64,000 nucleotides of DNA from Escherichia coli O157:H7 (GCF_013167455.1 NZ_CP038328.1), one strand, 5' to 3'; positions 266-4,207 are shown, numbered from the stretch's first letter. Notes: generated by a model from the letters alone, not told the origin. Program-made: numbers and translations.

Positions 266-346
266 TTTTTACCGTTGCATCATGTCGCCCAATATGATGC
301 TTGCTCGTACCAGGCCCCTGCAATTTCAACAGGGGCCTTTTTTTAT
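40..346 (+). ncRNA. micL: MicL (RyeF) sigma-E-dependent sRNA embedded in the cutC 3' end; bounds approximate
   Basis: GGAACTT at 4..10, 17-nt spacer, TCCAA at 28..32 resembles sigma-E -35/-10; distance to the cutC terminator T-run (about 306 nt) fits the reported MicL length. Confidence 0.5.
312..345 (+). terminator. Rho-independent terminator of cutC/MicL
   Basis: Stem aggcccctg / caggggcct followed by a T7 run. Confidence 0.75.
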
Positions 347-652
347 CCCTGAATAGTATAAAAAATGAACGATTACCGCGATCTGTTGAGCGGGTGACAG
401 TGCACATAGCGTTGTGCTAAAAATATTTTATATATTCACATTAATTATGTGATTTAAATTGCTAAAACTGACAAATATATATTCTAAATAACAACTGGAT
501 TATTCCTTAGCAATTAATGATTACATTGTAATAAATCATATTCTTTAGCGATTATTTCAGGCAGTGTTGTGCCGAATTAAGCAAGTAGTCAATTCGTTGT
601 GTATTTATTTATACAATGATTTCGGTGTTCTGGAATTTAATTAGAGGAATCT

Positions 653-1753
653 ATGCGAGGGAAAAAACGCATTGGGTTATTGTTTTTGCTGATAGCGGTT
701 GTGGTTGGTGGTGGCGGGTTCTTGATGGCGCAAAAAGCCTTACATAAAACGTCGGATACAGCATTTTGCCTTTCCTGCCACTCGATGAGTAAACCTTTTG
801 AGGAATATCAGGGAACTGTCCACTTTTCGAACCAGAAAGGGATACGTGCGGAATGTGCCGATTGCCATATTCCAAAGTCAGGGATGGATTATTTATTCGC
901 TAAATTAAAAGCATCTAAAGATATTTATCATGAATTTGTTAGCGGCAAAATAGACAGTGACGATAAGTTCGAAGCTCATCGCCAGGAAATGGCCGAAACA
1001 GTATGGAAAGAATTAAAAGCAACTGACTCTGCAACGTGCCGTAGTTGCCATTCTTTTGATGCCATGGATATTGCCTCGCAAAGTGAATCTGCGCAGAAAA
1101 TGCATAACAAAGCACAAAAGGGCGGCGAAACCTGTATCGATTGTCATAAAGGCATTGCCCATTTTCCGCCAGAAATAAAAATGGATGACAACGCGGCGCA
1201 TGAGCTGGAAAGTCAGGCCGCTACTTCAGTGACTAATGGCGCACATATTTATCCTTTCAAAACTTCTCGCATAGGCGAGCTGGCTACCGTGAATCCTGGT
1301 ACCGATCTCACCGTCGTTGATGCCAGTGGCAAACAGCCGATCGTTCTGTTGCAGGGTTATCAAATGCAGGGCAGTGAAAACACGCTCTACCTGGCGGCAG
1401 GTCAACGGCTGGCGCTAGCCACATTAAGTGAAGAAGGTATCAAGGCGCTCACGGTAAACGGGGAATGGCAGGCTGACGAATACGGCAATCAATGGCGTCA
1501 GGCGTCTTTACAGGGTGCGCTTACCGATCCCGCATTAGCGGACCGTAAACTGCTATGGCAATACGCTGAAAAACTTGACGATACCTATTGCGCTGGTTGT
1601 CATGCCCCTATTGCCGCCGACCATTACACCGTCAATGCGTGGCCGTCCATTGCCAAAGGAATGGGGGCACGAACCAGCATGAGCGAAAACGAACTGGACA
1701 TTTTAACGCGGTATTTCCAGTACAACGCCAAAGATATTACCGAGAAACAGTGA
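653..1753 (+). CDS. torY: Pentaheme c-type cytochrome TorY (NapC/NirT family), membrane-anchored
   Basis: 366-aa ORF; N-terminal hydrophobic anchor; five CxxCH motifs (CLSCH, CADCH, CRSCH, CIDCH, CAGCH). Confidence 0.9.
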
Positions 1754-1777
1754 TCCTCGTTGATCAGGGAGGAAGTT

Positions 1778-4207
1778 ATGACATTAACAAGACGTGAATT
1801 TATTAAACACAGCGGTATTGCCGCTGGAGCGCTGGTGGTGACATCGGCAGCACCGCTACCCGCATGGGCAGAAGAGAAGGGCGGTAAAATCCTCACCGCG
1901 GGACGTTGGGGAGCGATGAACGTAGAAGTGAAGGACGGCAAGATTGTTTCTTCGACAGGCGCGCTGGCGAAAACCATACCGAACTCCTTACAGTCTACGG
2001 CGGCGGATCAGGTACACACCACGGCGCGTATTCAGCATCCGATGGTGAGAAAAAGCTATCTCGACAATCCACTGCAACCGGCGAAAGGTCGTGGCGAAGA
2101 TACCTATGTACAGGTGAGCTGGGAACAGGCATTAAAACTGATTCATGAGCAACATGAGCGTATTCGTAAAGCTAACGGACCATCGGCCATTTTTGCCGGA
2201 TCTTACGGCTGGCGCTCTTCTGGCGTGTTGCATAAAGCGCAAACCTTACTGCAACGTTATATGAACCTGGCGGGCGGTTATTCCGGGCATAGCGGCGATT
2301 ATTCAACCGGGGCAGCACAGGTGATCATGCCGCATGTGGTCGGTTCTGTAGAGGTGTATGAACAGCAGACCTCCTGGCCGCTGATTCTGGAAAACAGCCA
2401 GGTTGTGGTGCTGTGGGGAATGAACCCGCTGAATACCTTAAAAATTGCCTGGAGCAGTACCGATGAGCAAGGGCTGGAATACTTCCATCAGCTGAAAAAA
2501 TCTGGCAAACCAGTGATTGCCATTGATCCTATCCGCTCTGAAACCATCGAGTTCTTTGGCTATAATGCCACCTGGATCGCGCCGAATATGGGCACCGACG
2601 TGGCACTGATGTTAGGGATTGCGCATACCCTGATGACACAAGGCAAACACGATAAAGTGTTCCTTGAAAAATACACCACCGGGTATCCGCAGTTTGAAGA
2701 GTATCTGACAGGTAAGAGCGATAATACTCCGAAGAGCGCGGCCTGGACGGCGGAAATTACTGGCGTACCGGAAGCGCAGATAGTCAAACTCGCTGAACTG
2801 ATGGCGGCGAATCGCACAATGCTGATGGCAGGCTGGGGAATTCAGCGCCAGCAATATGGTGAACAGAAACACTGGATGCTGGTGACGCTGGCGGCGATGT
2901 TAGGGCAGATTGGTACACCGGGCGGCGGTTTTGGTTTCTCTTATCATTACTCCAACGGTGGCAACCCGACGCGTGTTGGCGGCGTGCTGCCGGAAATGTC
3001 TGCGGCGATTGCCGGACAGGCCAGCGAGGCCGCTGATGATGGCGGAATGACGGCGATTCCTGTTGCCCGTATCGTCGATGCGCTGGAAAATCCTGGCGGC
3101 AAATATCAGCATAACGGTAAAGAACAAACGTATCCGAATATCAAAATGATCTGGTGGGCGGGTGGCGGTAACTTTACCCATCACCAGGATACTAATCGTC
3201 TGATCAAAGCATGGCAGAAACCGGAGATGATCGTCGTTTCTGAATGCTACTGGACCGCAGCTGCTAAACATGCAGATATCGTATTACCGATCACCACATC
3301 GTTTGAGCGCAATGACTTGACGATGACCGGTGATTACAGCAACCAGCATATTGTACCGATGAAGCAGGCTGTCGCTCCGCAATTTGAAGCGCGAAACGAT
3401 TTTGACGTGTTTGCCGAACTTGCGGAATTACTGAAACCAGGCGGAAAAGAGATCTATACCGAAGGTAAAGATGAAATGGCGTGGCTGAAATTTTTCTATG
3501 ATGCCGCTCAGAAAGGTGCCCGTGCGCAACGCGTCACTATGCCAATGTTTAATGCCTTCTGGCAGCAAAATAAACTGATCGAAATGCGCCGCAGCGAGAA
3601 GAACGAACAGTACGTTCGTTATGGTGATTTCCGCGCCGATCCGGTGAAAAATGCGCTGGGTACGCCAAGCGGCAAAATTGAGATTTACTCCAAAACGCTG
3701 GAAAAATTTGGCTATAAGGATTGCCCGGCACACCCAACCTGGCTTGCGCCTGATGAGTGGAAAGGTACCGCCGACGAGAAGCAGTTACAGCTTCTGACCG
3801 CACATCCGGCACACCGTTTACACAGTCAGCTTAACTATGCGCAACTGCGTAAAAAATATGCGGTTGCCGATCGTGAACCAATCACTATTCACACCGAAGA
3901 TGCTGCTCGCTTTGGTATTGCGAATGGCGATCTGGTCCGTGTCTGGAACAAACGTGGTCAGATTTTGACAGGCGCTGTGGTGACTGACGGGATCAAAAAA
4001 GGCGTGGTATGCGTGCATGAAGGTGCATGGCCAGATCTGGAAAATGGCTTGTGTAAAAACGGCAGTGCGAACGTGTTAACGGCGGATATCCCCAGCTCGC
4101 AGCTGGCAAATGCCTGTGCCGGTAACTCTGCGCTGGTGTATATCGAAAAATATACGGGTAACGCACCGAAGTTAACGGCGTTTGATCAGCCAGCTGTTCA
4201 GGCATAA
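1778..4207 (+). CDS. torZ: Trimethylamine N-oxide / S-oxide reductase TorZ (BisZ), molybdopterin enzyme with Tat signal
   Basis: Twin-arginine motif TRREFIK at the N-terminus; about 809 aa from ATG at 1778 (ORF track starts 18 nt earlier at 1760); 7-nt gap after torY. Confidence 0.9.

What the first reader, a model, noticed from the sequence alone, without database searches (positions are those of the whole stretch)
266..4207. torYZ cryptic TMAO reductase pair behind a 390-bp AT-rich upstream region
TorY carries five CxxCH haem motifs plus an N-terminal anchor and TorZ has a twin-arginine signal (RREFIK), separated by 7 nt (24 nt from the torZ ATG at 1778), so a complete quinol-to-TMAO electron path is encoded. 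The upstream 266..652 is strongly AT-rich with no recognisable strong promoter, consistent with silencing, and no torS/torT/torR-like sensor is adjacent in this window.
Basis: partly seen in the sequence, partly recalled or inferred. Interest (0 to 1): 0.3.

Follow-up and report, generated by a model that had tools for sequence, protein, structure and literature searches.

The report
Known E. coli torYZ oxide-reductase operon
This is the already characterised torYZ operon of E. coli O157:H7, a membrane cytochrome plus a periplasmic molybdenum S-/N-oxide reductase that published K-12 data show to be bound by the silencer H-NS and poorly expressed, so the finding is correct but ordinary.

Summary
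torY (653..1753) encodes a 366-aa membrane-anchored cytochrome with exactly five CxxCH motifs. torZ (ATG 1778..4207) is an intact 809-aa Tat-exported molybdoenzyme. The stretch is 100% identical to many O157:H7 chromosomes, and the proteins are 98-99% identical to K-12 TorY/TorZ, characterised by Gon et al. in 2000.

Three corrections:
- **MicL overlap.** Positions 266..344 of the "upstream region" are the 3' end and terminator of the sigma-E sRNA MicL (37..344; MicL-S 265..344). The real torY spacer is 345..652, at 30% GC.
- **Enzyme class.** TorZ is closest to BisC (64%) and H. influenzae MtsZ, not TorA (46%). It keeps the active-site Tyr that strict TMAO reductases lack, so it is a broad S-/N-oxide reductase.
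- **Silencing and promoter.** Silencing is already documented in K-12 by H-NS SELEX and ChIP-chip over torY and its upstream. A weak promoter, GTGACA-18-TAAAAA (394..423), has been predicted there.

One new observation: Citrobacter and Moritella torYZ orthologues carry a perfect or near-perfect FNR box about 73 bp upstream of torY. All Escherichia lineages examined lack it. This fits the constant low expression.

Verdict: already known, low interest.

The parts
37..344 (+). MicL sRNA. The 308-nt sigma-E-dependent primary transcript starts inside cutC. The processed 80-nt MicL-S is 265..344. It overlaps the first 79 nt of the reported 'upstream region'.
   Evidence: Rfam RF02654 full-length match, 373.7 bits against a gathering score of 56. 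micL b4717 is annotated at the homologous K-12 position. [quoted passage not shown] The sequence is 100% identical to K-12 here.
312..345 (+). cutC/MicL intrinsic terminator: a 9-bp G+C-rich stem (312-320 / 330-338) followed by seven T. It separates cutC/MicL transcription from torYZ.
   Evidence: The MicL-S fold is -28.8 kcal/mol, z = -5.15 against shuffles. PMC4102768 states that MicL ends at the cutC terminator, well upstream of torY.
345..652 (+). True torY upstream spacer: 308 bp, 30% GC. Its K-12 counterpart is an H-NS-bound region.
   Evidence: GC computed. H-NS is marked in genomic SELEX (PMC3946193) and in ChIP-chip (PMC3688515 Table S3). Upstream regions are equally AT-rich (23-35% GC) in all Enterobacterales torYZ loci examined.
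394..423 (+). Published predicted sigma-70 promoter: GTGACA (394-399), 18 nt, TAAAAA (418-423). It would give a leader of about 220 nt. This is a prediction, not a mapped start site.
   Evidence: Listed for the torY-cutC spacer in PMC3946193 Table 2. Read in the window. The hexamers are identical in K-12, with one SNP in the spacer. RpoS holoenzyme also binds this spacer in vitro (PMC5493296). It is not picked up by the stricter consensus scan.
567..580 (+). TTGTGCCGAATTAA, a degenerate (7 of 10) remnant at the alignment position where Citrobacter orthologues carry a perfect FNR box, TTGATGAATATCAA.
   Evidence: Alignment A3. The motif scan of 400 bp upstream of torY in 24 loci is.
653..1753 (+). 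torY: 366-aa membrane-anchored pentahaem c-type cytochrome (quinol dehydrogenase). Shine-Dalgarno GAGGA at 644-648.
   Evidence: Five CxxCH motifs and a TM helix. PF03264 matches residues 7-174, E = 4.9e-70. 98% identical to K-12 TorY and 33% to TorC, including the C-terminal fifth-haem domain.
1778..4207 (+). torZ: 809-aa Tat-exported bis-MGD molybdoenzyme, an S-/N-oxide reductase. Shine-Dalgarno GGAGG at 1768-1772. The signal peptide is about aa 1-31 (nt 1778-1870). Active-site residues are Tyr143, Trp145 and Ser176.
   Evidence: TIGR00509 scores 1263 bits against a cut-off of 1017, and TIGR01409 (Tat) passes. PF00384, PF01568 and PF18364 match. 99% identical to K-12 TorZ. The alignment to DMSO reductase places Y114/W116/S147 at these residues.
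4217..4236 (.). G+C-rich hairpin GCGCCCGGAAACGGGCGC, 10 nt after the torZ stop, followed by REP-type repeats (about 4250-4360) before convergent cmoB. It is the likely end of the torYZ transcript. The U-run lies only on the minus strand.
   Evidence: Folds of -20.0 (+) and -15.8 (-) kcal/mol, z = -5.6 and -4.4. Rfam ES036 matches 4280-4322 (-) at 45.5 bits against 37.6; naRNA4 is sub-threshold. Sequence.

Best explanation
**What it is.** The region is the E. coli O157:H7 copy of the known torYZ (yecK bisZ) operon.

**How it works.** TorY is anchored in the inner membrane by one N-terminal helix. It takes electrons from the quinol pool through a four-haem NapC/NirT module and passes them through a fifth-haem C-terminal domain to TorZ. 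TorZ is exported folded by the Tat pathway and reduces S- and N-oxides (TMAO, DMSO, biotin sulfoxide, methionine sulfoxide) at a bis-MGD molybdenum centre ligated by Ser176, with Tyr143 and Trp145 in the active site. The two genes are 24 nt apart, each with its own Shine-Dalgarno sequence, and are read as one operon.

**Transcription.** It must start downstream of the strong cutC/MicL terminator (312-345), within the 308-bp, 30% GC spacer 345..652. In K-12 this spacer and torY itself are covered by H-NS. The spacer has only weak promoter elements. It has no TorR boxes and no FNR box, and no sensor or TorD chaperone is encoded nearby. The operon is therefore expressed at a low, largely constitutive level.

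**Shown here.** Gene integrity, motifs, domain and active-site assignments, identity to the K-12 genes, the MicL overlap, and the absence of regulator sites.

**Taken from the literature on K-12.** Enzyme activities, low expression and H-NS occupancy.

**Inferred.** H-NS occupancy and low expression also apply to this O157 allele, because the spacer is 97% identical.
For: **Identity and conservation.**
- 100% identical over 4.4 kb to many O157:H7 chromosomes that annotate torY and torZ at these coordinates. 5307 of 5426 complete E. coli genomes hold at least 80% of the stretch.
- TorY is 98% and TorZ 99% identical to K-12. The spacer alignment has 97% mean column identity.

**Protein features.**
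- Five CxxCH motifs, a TM helix, a Tat motif and intact ORFs.
- PF03264, PF00384, PF01568 and PF18364 match. TIGR00509 and TIGR01409 are above their cut-offs.
- Tyr143, Trp145 and Ser176 align with DMSO reductase Y114, W116 and S147.

**Operon unit.** The torY-torZ pair is conserved as a unit in Escherichia, Citrobacter, Budvicia, Leminorella, Vibrio, Moritella and Photobacterium.

**Function (literature).** Overexpressed torYZ supports anaerobic growth on TMAO, DMSO and biotin sulfoxide. No TorD is needed (PMC5122715 summarising Gon et al. 2000).

**Expression (literature and scans).**
- Constant low-level transcription (PMC1805755).
- H-NS in SELEX and in ChIP-chip.
- No sigma-70 ChIP-seq peak in the spacer in anaerobic glucose minimal medium.
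- No tor box and no FNR box in the spacer.
- No tor regulators in the window.
Against: - No expression or H-NS data for O157:H7 itself were examined. There are about 20 SNPs between the O157 and K-12 spacers.
- The true transcription start of torYZ was not available to me. Gon et al. 2000 is not in the held library. The 394..423 promoter is only a prediction.
- The operon is not fully silent. torZ mRNA rises 4-fold with HOCl, 6-fold with copper and 3-fold with paraquat in a uropathogenic strain (PMC12096835). Some regulator therefore acts on it.
- A search for the H-NS high-affinity motif TCGWTWAATT found no site in 345..652.
- The physiological substrate is unsettled.
Confidence: 0.9

Rival explanations
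1. The operon's real role is oxidative-damage repair or detoxification rather than TMAO respiration. On this view TorZ reduces free methionine sulfoxide or biotin sulfoxide in the periplasm, like H. influenzae MtsZ, and is switched on by oxidative, copper or hypochlorite stress. This disputes the physiological label, not the parts or the electron path.
For: - TorZ's best solved relative is H. influenzae MtsZ (7L5I, 1007 bits). DMSO reductases follow at about 835 bits and E. coli TorA at 720 bits.
- TorZ is 64% identical to BisC but 46% to TorA.
- It keeps the Tyr that strict N-oxide reductases lack.
- It passes the bisC_fam model but fails both TorA equivalog cut-offs.
- PMC8166771 places EcTorZ in group 2 with BisC and MtsZ, all able to reduce MetSO, with the lowest Km for biotin sulfoxide at 0.36 mM.
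- torZ is induced by HOCl, copper and paraquat.
- It is not induced by TMAO, by my recollection of the Gon et al. 2000 abstract. There are no tor boxes.
Against: - Overexpressed torYZ gave the best anaerobic growth with TMAO.
- A torZ mutant colonised the mouse intestine normally (PMC7759655).
- The stress inductions are small, 3- to 6-fold from a low base.
- No kinetic data for E. coli TorZ with MetSO were seen here.
Confidence: 0.4
2. Low expression in Escherichia is due mainly to loss of an activator site, with H-NS secondary. On this view the ancestral torYZ promoter was a class II FNR-dependent promoter, as it still appears to be in Citrobacter and Moritella, and the Escherichia lineage lost the FNR box.
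For: - A perfect or 1-mismatch TTGAT-N4-ATCAA is centred 73.5-74.5 bp upstream of the torY ATG in 11 of 11 Citrobacter loci. It sits at -71.5 in two Moritella loci and at -89.5 in Photobacterium.
- No match with 2 or fewer mismatches occurs within 400 bp upstream of torY in five Escherichia lineages, apart from one in E. whittamii at -389.5 that corresponds to cutC coding sequence.
- At the aligned position E. coli has TTGTGCCGAATTAA, a 7/10 match.
- In Citrobacter braakii the box would sit at -41.5 relative to a start 7 nt downstream of a TATTGT hexamer (read).
- FNR, ArcA and NarP sites were predicted upstream of torYZ in Pasteurellaceae (PMC1805755).
Against: - The Citrobacter loci are related to one another, so they count as few independent events.
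- Alignment of AT-rich spacers between genera is weak (58% column identity).
- No expression data for Citrobacter torYZ were seen.
- In K-12 lacking H-NS and StpA, an FNR ChIP peak appears 'within torZ' and torZ becomes 2-fold anaerobically induced. Some FNR input may therefore survive in E. coli.
- Budvicia, Leminorella and several Vibrio loci have no good box at that position.
Confidence: 0.35
3. torZ is transcribed partly on its own from an internal promoter in the 3' end of torY, so the pair is not strictly a single silenced unit.
For: - A sigma-70 ChIP-seq peak at U00096.2 position 1955119 maps to about window 1626-1695, inside the torY 3' end and roughly 85-150 bp upstream of the torZ ATG.
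- The authors label it 'torZ', with an O2-dependent change in occupancy (PMC3688515 Tables S1 and S2).
- It coincides with the edge of the anaerobic H-NS region.
Against: - No sigma-70 consensus match lies on the + strand between 1600 and 1777.
- ChIP peaks carry no strand, so this could be an antisense or non-productive site.
- TorZ without TorY would have no electron donor.
- H. influenzae torYZ is co-transcribed.
Confidence: 0.15

Closest known systems
E. coli K-12 torYZ (yecK bisZ; b1873-b1872), Gon et al. 2000, J Bacteriol 182:5779
   Same: - Same locus: yecM-cutC/MicL-torY-torZ, convergent with cmoB-cmoA.
- Same gene lengths (366 and 809 aa), at 98% and 99% protein identity.
- Same 24-nt intergenic gap, same haem motifs, Tat signal and active-site residues.
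- Spacer 97% identical.
   Different: - Allelic differences only: 7 substitutions in TorY and 10 in TorZ, none in CxxCH, Tat or active-site positions.
- About 20 SNPs in the spacer, none in the predicted -35 and -10 hexamers.
E. coli torCAD TMAO respiratory system with torS/torT/torR
   Same: Both have a pentahaem NapC/NirT-type cytochrome with a C-terminal fifth-haem domain, followed by a Tat-exported bis-MGD reductase. The quinol-to-cytochrome-to-reductase logic is the same.
   Different: - Only 33% (TorY/TorC) and 46% (TorZ/TorA) identity.
- TorZ keeps the active-site Tyr that TorA lacks.
- No torD chaperone gene and no torS/T/R nearby.
- No tor boxes.
- Not TMAO-inducible, by my recollection of the Gon et al. 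2000 abstract. The held papers state only constant low-level transcription.
H. influenzae TorYZ / MtsZ methionine sulfoxide reductase (PDB 7L5I)
   Same: - Same two-gene architecture, with a 366-aa TorY and a gap of about 25 bp.
- It is the closest solved structure to TorZ (1007 bits).
- Same catalytic Tyr, Trp and Ser.
   Different: - MtsZ forms a separate clade (PMC5122715).
- It is expressed under oxygen limitation and matters for virulence.
- Candidate FNR, ArcA and NarP sites were predicted upstream of torYZ in Pasteurellaceae genomes, including H. influenzae.
- E. coli torYZ is nearly silent, and a torZ mutant had no gut-colonisation defect.
E. coli BisC, the cytoplasmic biotin/methionine sulfoxide reductase
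   Same: It is the closest paralogue: 64% identity across the whole mature enzyme, starting at TorZ residue 37. It belongs to the same NCBIfam subfamily, TIGR00509.
   Different: BisC has no Tat signal and no cytochrome partner. In the genome scan, BisC-like hits began at about residue 37 and had no torY upstream.

Membership tests
TorC/TorY-type pentahaem NapC/NirT cytochromes | Single N-terminal transmembrane anchor | tested here: met
   The Kyte-Doolittle 19-residue mean is 2.5 over residues about 7-25, and this is the only segment above 1.6.
TorC/TorY-type pentahaem NapC/NirT cytochromes | Four CxxCH motifs in an N-terminal NapC/NirT module, plus a fifth in a C-terminal extension | tested here: met
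   CxxCH at aa 39, 68, 129, 161 and 313. PF03264 covers residues 7-174, E = 4.9e-70. The C-terminal domain aligns with TorC through the fifth haem motif.
TorC/TorY-type pentahaem NapC/NirT cytochromes | Equivalence to TorC itself (NCBIfam equivalog cut-off) | tested here: not met
   TIGR02162 scores 307 bits against a cut-off of 478, and NF011606 scores 245 against 455. Identity to TorC is 33%. It is TorY, a paralogue, not TorC.
Dor/Tor-type (type III) DMSO-reductase-family S-/N-oxide reductases | Molybdopterin oxidoreductase and MGD-binding domains, without an N-terminal Fe-S cluster domain | tested here: met
   PF00384, PF01568 and PF18364 match; no Fe4S4 domain was hit. TIGR00509 bisC_fam scores 1263 bits against a cut-off of 1017.
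Dor/Tor-type (type III) DMSO-reductase-family S-/N-oxide reductases | [quoted passage not shown] | tested here: met
   Ser176, Tyr143 and Trp145 align with S147, Y114 and W116 of Rhodobacter DMSO reductase. The criterion is stated in PMC5122715 and PMC8166771.
Dor/Tor-type (type III) DMSO-reductase-family S-/N-oxide reductases | Twin-arginine signal peptide for periplasmic export | tested here: met
   The motif TRREFIK is present and TIGR01409 scores 27.1 bits against a cut-off of 16.7. Actual export was not testable here.
TorA-type strict TMAO (N-oxide only) reductases | Absence of the active-site tyrosine, and a score above the TorA equivalog cut-offs | tested here: not met
   TorZ has GSYGW where TorA has AS-GW. 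NF011682 scores 856 bits against a cut-off of 909, and TIGR02164 scores 816 against 1465.
TorA-type strict TMAO (N-oxide only) reductases | Dedicated TorD chaperone gene and an adjacent TorS/TorT/TorR sensor, with TorR boxes in the promoter | tested here: not met
   No such genes are annotated in the 64-kb window. No CTGTTCATAT with 2 or fewer mismatches lies in 345..652. The box consensus is from my own knowledge of the torC promoter.
H-NS-silenced loci | AT-rich DNA well below the genome average | tested here: met
   345..652 is 30% GC. 266..652 is in the lowest 0.6% of windows.
H-NS-silenced loci | H-NS occupancy in vivo and derepression without H-NS | not testable with these tools
   Published for K-12 only. 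Evidence there is the SELEX mark, ChIP-chip regions covering torY plus the spacer, and an O2-dependent 2-fold change in torZ only in the hns stpA mutant. It is not measured in O157. The H-NS motif search was negative.
MicL sRNA (Rfam RF02654) | Full-length covariance-model match above gathering score, at the cutC 3' end, ending at the cutC terminator | tested here: met
   The match at 37..344 scores 373.7 bits against 56 and covers model positions 1-308 of 308. The coordinates agree with PMC4102768 and the K-12 annotation.

The most novel reading that the evidence does not exclude
In the Escherichia lineage torYZ sits between cutC/MicL and cmoB, a context seen only in Escherichia among the loci sampled. 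There it lost the class II FNR activator box that its Citrobacter and Moritella orthologues keep about 73 bp upstream of torY. It is now held nearly silent by an H-NS filament spanning torY, the spacer and the MicL/cutC 3' end. Its small residual induction by copper, hypochlorite or paraquat would then come from a non-respiratory input, such as sigma-S, or sigma-E-driven read-through of the MicL terminator. That would tie a 'respiratory' enzyme to envelope and oxidative stress.
Probability: 0.2. Interest if true: 0.35.

Novelty: already known. Interest (0 to 1): 0.1.

Why it matters
The annotation is routine. torYZ has been characterised since 2000 and is present in about 98% of complete E. 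coli genomes.

What remains open is its physiological substrate and the signal that lifts its silencing. [quoted passage not shown]

Two points from this check could help anyone designing experiments:
- Deletions or reporter fusions that use '266..652' as promoter DNA would also remove or carry the MicL-S sRNA, which represses Lpp.
- Escherichia torYZ lacks the FNR box conserved in Citrobacter orthologues. This gives a simple, testable reason for the lack of anaerobic induction.

Tried and rejected
- **H-NS motif.** A search for the high-affinity motif TCGWTWAATT with 1 mismatch or fewer gave no site in 345..652, and the window-wide count equalled chance. This is uninformative, not evidence against H-NS binding.
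- **Promoter and terminator scan.** The consensus scan found no + strand promoter in the spacer. The terminator was confirmed by folding instead.
- **TorR box.** A CTGTTCATAT search gave chance-level counts and nothing in the spacer.
- **FNR box.** A search within the window found only 2-mismatch hits in cutC and torY coding sequence and none in torZ. I could not locate the site behind the published 'within torZ' FNR peak.
- **Solved structures for TorY.** None were found.
- **Gon et al. 2000 (PMC94700).** It is not held. Its content is cited second-hand from papers that summarise it, or marked as my recollection.
- **Spacer alignment between genera.** Aligning Escherichia and Citrobacter spacers gave no convincing overall homology (58% column identity in AT-rich DNA). 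Only the FNR-box position and a short block downstream of it are comparable.
- **A different or novel system.** I considered this and rejected it on 100% identity to annotated genomes.
- **Insertion into an ancestral cutC-cmoB junction.** I did not test this in Salmonella or Citrobacter.

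
Full report
**What is at the coordinates**

The window's first 4.4 kb is 100% identical to many E. coli O157:H7 chromosomes. 5307 of 5426 complete E. coli genomes carry at least 80% of it in one place. RefSeq annotates the stretch as follows:

| Feature | Coordinates | Annotation |
|---|---|---|
| cutC | ends at 265 | copper homeostasis protein CutC |
| torY | 653..1753 | NapC/NirT family cytochrome c |
| torZ | 1778..4207 | trimethylamine N-oxide reductase TorZ |
| cmoB | 4372..5343, minus strand | convergent with torZ |

The K-12 homologues are b1873 and b1872. The proteins are 98% (359/366) and 99% (799/809) identical to them.

**Checking the observation**

Re-translation gives the following.
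- TorY is an intact 366-aa protein with exactly five CxxCH motifs, at aa 39, 68, 129, 161 and 313.
- TorY has one hydrophobic N-terminal helix.
- TorZ is an intact 809-aa protein starting [10 protein letters not shown].
- The Tat model TIGR01409 passes its cut-off.
- The torY stop (1751-1753) is 6 nt from the mechanical TTG at 1760 and 24 nt from the real ATG at 1778. That ATG is preceded by GGAGG at 1768-1772.
- The interval 266..652 is 33% GC against 50% for the window. This is the lowest 0.6% of 387-bp windows.
- A consensus scan finds no + strand sigma-70 site there.
- No tor regulator or torD lies anywhere in the 64 kb.

Rfam places the sRNA MicL at 37..344 on the + strand. The match is full length, at 373.7 bits against a gathering score of 56. 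K-12 annotates micL at the homologous position.

Guo et al. (PMC4102768) showed three things.
[quoted passage not shown] In the window, that makes MicL-S 265..344. The terminator stem is 312-320/330-338, followed by seven T (fold -28.8 kcal/mol, z = -5.15). This segment is 100% identical to K-12.

So 79 of the 387 "upstream" bases belong to another functional element. The torY control region proper is 345..652, which is 308 bp at 30% GC.

**What the proteins are**

TorY matches the NapC/NirT N-terminal family over residues 7-174 (E = 4.9e-70). It aligns with TorC along its whole length, including the fifth-haem C-terminal domain, but at only 33% identity. It falls below the TorC equivalog cut-offs.

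TorZ passes the bisC_fam S/N-oxide reductase model (1263 bits against a cut-off of 1017). It fails both TorA equivalog models. Its relatives rank as follows.

| Relative | Similarity to TorZ |
|---|---|
| E. coli BisC | 64% identity, from TorZ residue 37 onward |
| H. influenzae MtsZ (PDB 7L5I) | 1007 bits |
| Rhodobacter DMSO reductases | about 835 bits |
| E. coli TorA | 720 bits; 46% identity |

Alignment to DMSO reductase puts Tyr143, Trp145 and Ser176 at the positions of Y114, W116 and S147. TorA has a deletion where the Tyr should be.

According to PMC5122715 and PMC8166771, that Tyr distinguishes combined S-/N-oxide reductases from strict N-oxide reductases. EcTorZ belongs with BisC and MtsZ in a group whose members all reduce methionine sulfoxide. 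The lowest reported TorZ Km is for biotin sulfoxide, at 0.36 mM.

The "complete quinol-to-oxide electron path" reading is right for the structural subunits. "TMAO reductase" is a historical label rather than an established physiological role.

**Expression and silencing**

PMC1805755, citing Gon et al. [quoted passage not shown] Two further points come from PMC5122715's summary of that paper:
- A strain carrying only torYZ cannot respire TMAO unless the operon is overexpressed.
- No TorD chaperone appears to be required.

Published K-12 binding data:
- Shimada et al. list the torY-cutC spacer as an RpoD-holoenzyme site. They predict the promoter GTGACA-18-TAAAAA and mark the spacer as holding an H-NS site (PMC3946193). 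That promoter is present at 394..423 in the window, and its hexamers are unchanged from K-12.
- RpoS holoenzyme also binds the spacer in vitro (PMC5493296).
- Myers et al. (PMC3688515, U00096.2 coordinates) report H-NS ChIP-chip regions at 1955116-1956791 (anaerobic) and 1954944-1958210 (aerobic).

To convert these coordinates I used an offset of about 1976 bp to NC_000913.3. Three anchor peaks bound the offset to 1971-2040. On that basis the H-NS regions map to roughly window 18..1693 and <1..1865. H-NS therefore covers torY, the spacer and the MicL/cutC 3' end.

Further results from the same study:
- No sigma-70 ChIP-seq peak lies in the spacer in anaerobic glucose medium.
- An FNR peak "within torZ" appears only in a hns stpA mutant.
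- torZ becomes 2-fold higher anaerobically only in that mutant.

The silencing interpretation is therefore supported by existing experiments in K-12. I infer that it applies to this 97%-identical O157 spacer.

The operon is not fully inert. In a uropathogenic strain torZ mRNA rises 4-fold with HOCl, 6-fold with copper and 3-fold with paraquat (PMC12096835).

**Comparative result**

One scan of species-representative genomes, followed by tblastn of the neighbouring genes, shows the torY-torZ pair as a unit in several genera.

| Genus | TorZ identity |
|---|---|
| Escherichia | 95-98% |
| Citrobacter | 77-78% |
| Budvicia, Leminorella | 74-77% |
| Vibrio, Moritella, Photobacterium | 68-70% |

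- Hits that begin at about residue 37 and lack torY are BisC-like.
- Only Escherichia loci have the cutC ... cmoBA context.
- The 300 bp upstream of torY is strongly AT-rich in every Enterobacterales locus, at 23-35% GC against 46-53% for the locus. The AT-rich leader is therefore a property of the operon, not of the E. coli location.

The FNR consensus shows a clear split.
- A perfect or 1-mismatch TTGAT-N4-ATCAA sits 73.5-74.5 bp upstream of the torY ATG in 11 of 11 Citrobacter loci.
- It sits at -71.5 in both Moritella loci.
- No match with 2 or fewer mismatches occurs in the torY upstream spacer of any of five Escherichia lineages. The one hit in E. whittamii, at -389.5, corresponds to cutC coding sequence.
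- At the aligned position E. coli reads TTGTGCCGAATTAA (567..580).
- No TorR box lies in the spacer either.

This suggests that Escherichia lost an anaerobic activator site. That would fit the constant low expression, but it remains an inference. The Citrobacter loci are not independent of one another, the inter-genus alignment is weak, and no expression data for Citrobacter were seen.

**Verdict**

The finding is a correct reading of a well-known operon, and its silencing hypothesis is already documented in K-12. The corrections are the MicL overlap, the enzyme class, the 6-nt versus 7-nt count, and the existence of a published weak promoter prediction. Novelty: already known. Interest: low.

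Noticed in passing
window 37..344 (+): The sigma-E-dependent sRNA MicL lies inside the cutC 3' end and its 3' UTR, and MicL-S is 265..344. It overlaps the start of the reported interval and is 100% identical to K-12. Published H-NS and IHF ChIP regions in K-12 also extend over it.
   Followed up: yes
window about 1626..1695 (torY 3' end): A published K-12 sigma-70 ChIP-seq peak (U00096.2 position 1955119, labelled 'torZ', O2-dependent) maps here, at the edge of the anaerobic H-NS region. No consensus promoter is visible on the + strand. It could be an internal or antisense promoter.
   Followed up: partly
window about 3601 (within torZ); L086 4102..6533: In some O157:H7 cattle isolates (YB14-1, strains 144 and 150) an IS66-family ISEc8 element splits torZ after about 1824 nt, making it a pseudogene. 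The window copy is intact. Natural loss of torZ fits a dispensable gene.
   Followed up: partly
window 4208..4371: The torZ-cmoB convergent spacer holds a G+C-rich hairpin (4217-4236) whose U-run is only on the minus strand. It also holds REP/BIME-type repeats that hit Rfam ES036 (4280-4322, above gathering score) and naRNA4 (below gathering score).
   Followed up: partly
window about 12408, 50707 and 53430: Three other intergenic stretches are as AT-rich as the torY spacer, at 31-32% GC over 387 bp. They lie near yebB/yobI/ruvA, mgrB/yebO/yobF and upstream of mntP. Two of these spacers are also marked as H-NS sites in the K-12 SELEX table.
   Followed up: no
L009-L014, L019, L027, L069, L079 (Citrobacter), about 74 bp upstream of torY: A conserved perfect FNR box, TTGATGAATATCAA, is followed by a conserved block TGTCTACCTAT(A/T)AAAGGGTA in otherwise diverged AT-rich spacers. 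The spacing fits a class II FNR promoter with a -10 hexamer TATTGT.
   Followed up: partly
window 17249..18570, 34292..35163 and 57299..58854 (by collinearity with FORC_044): The identical-region reference genome FORC_044 annotates mepM, copD and yoaE as frameshifted pseudogenes. I did not check whether the window sequence carries the same frameshifts or whether they are assembly errors of that record.
   Followed up: no
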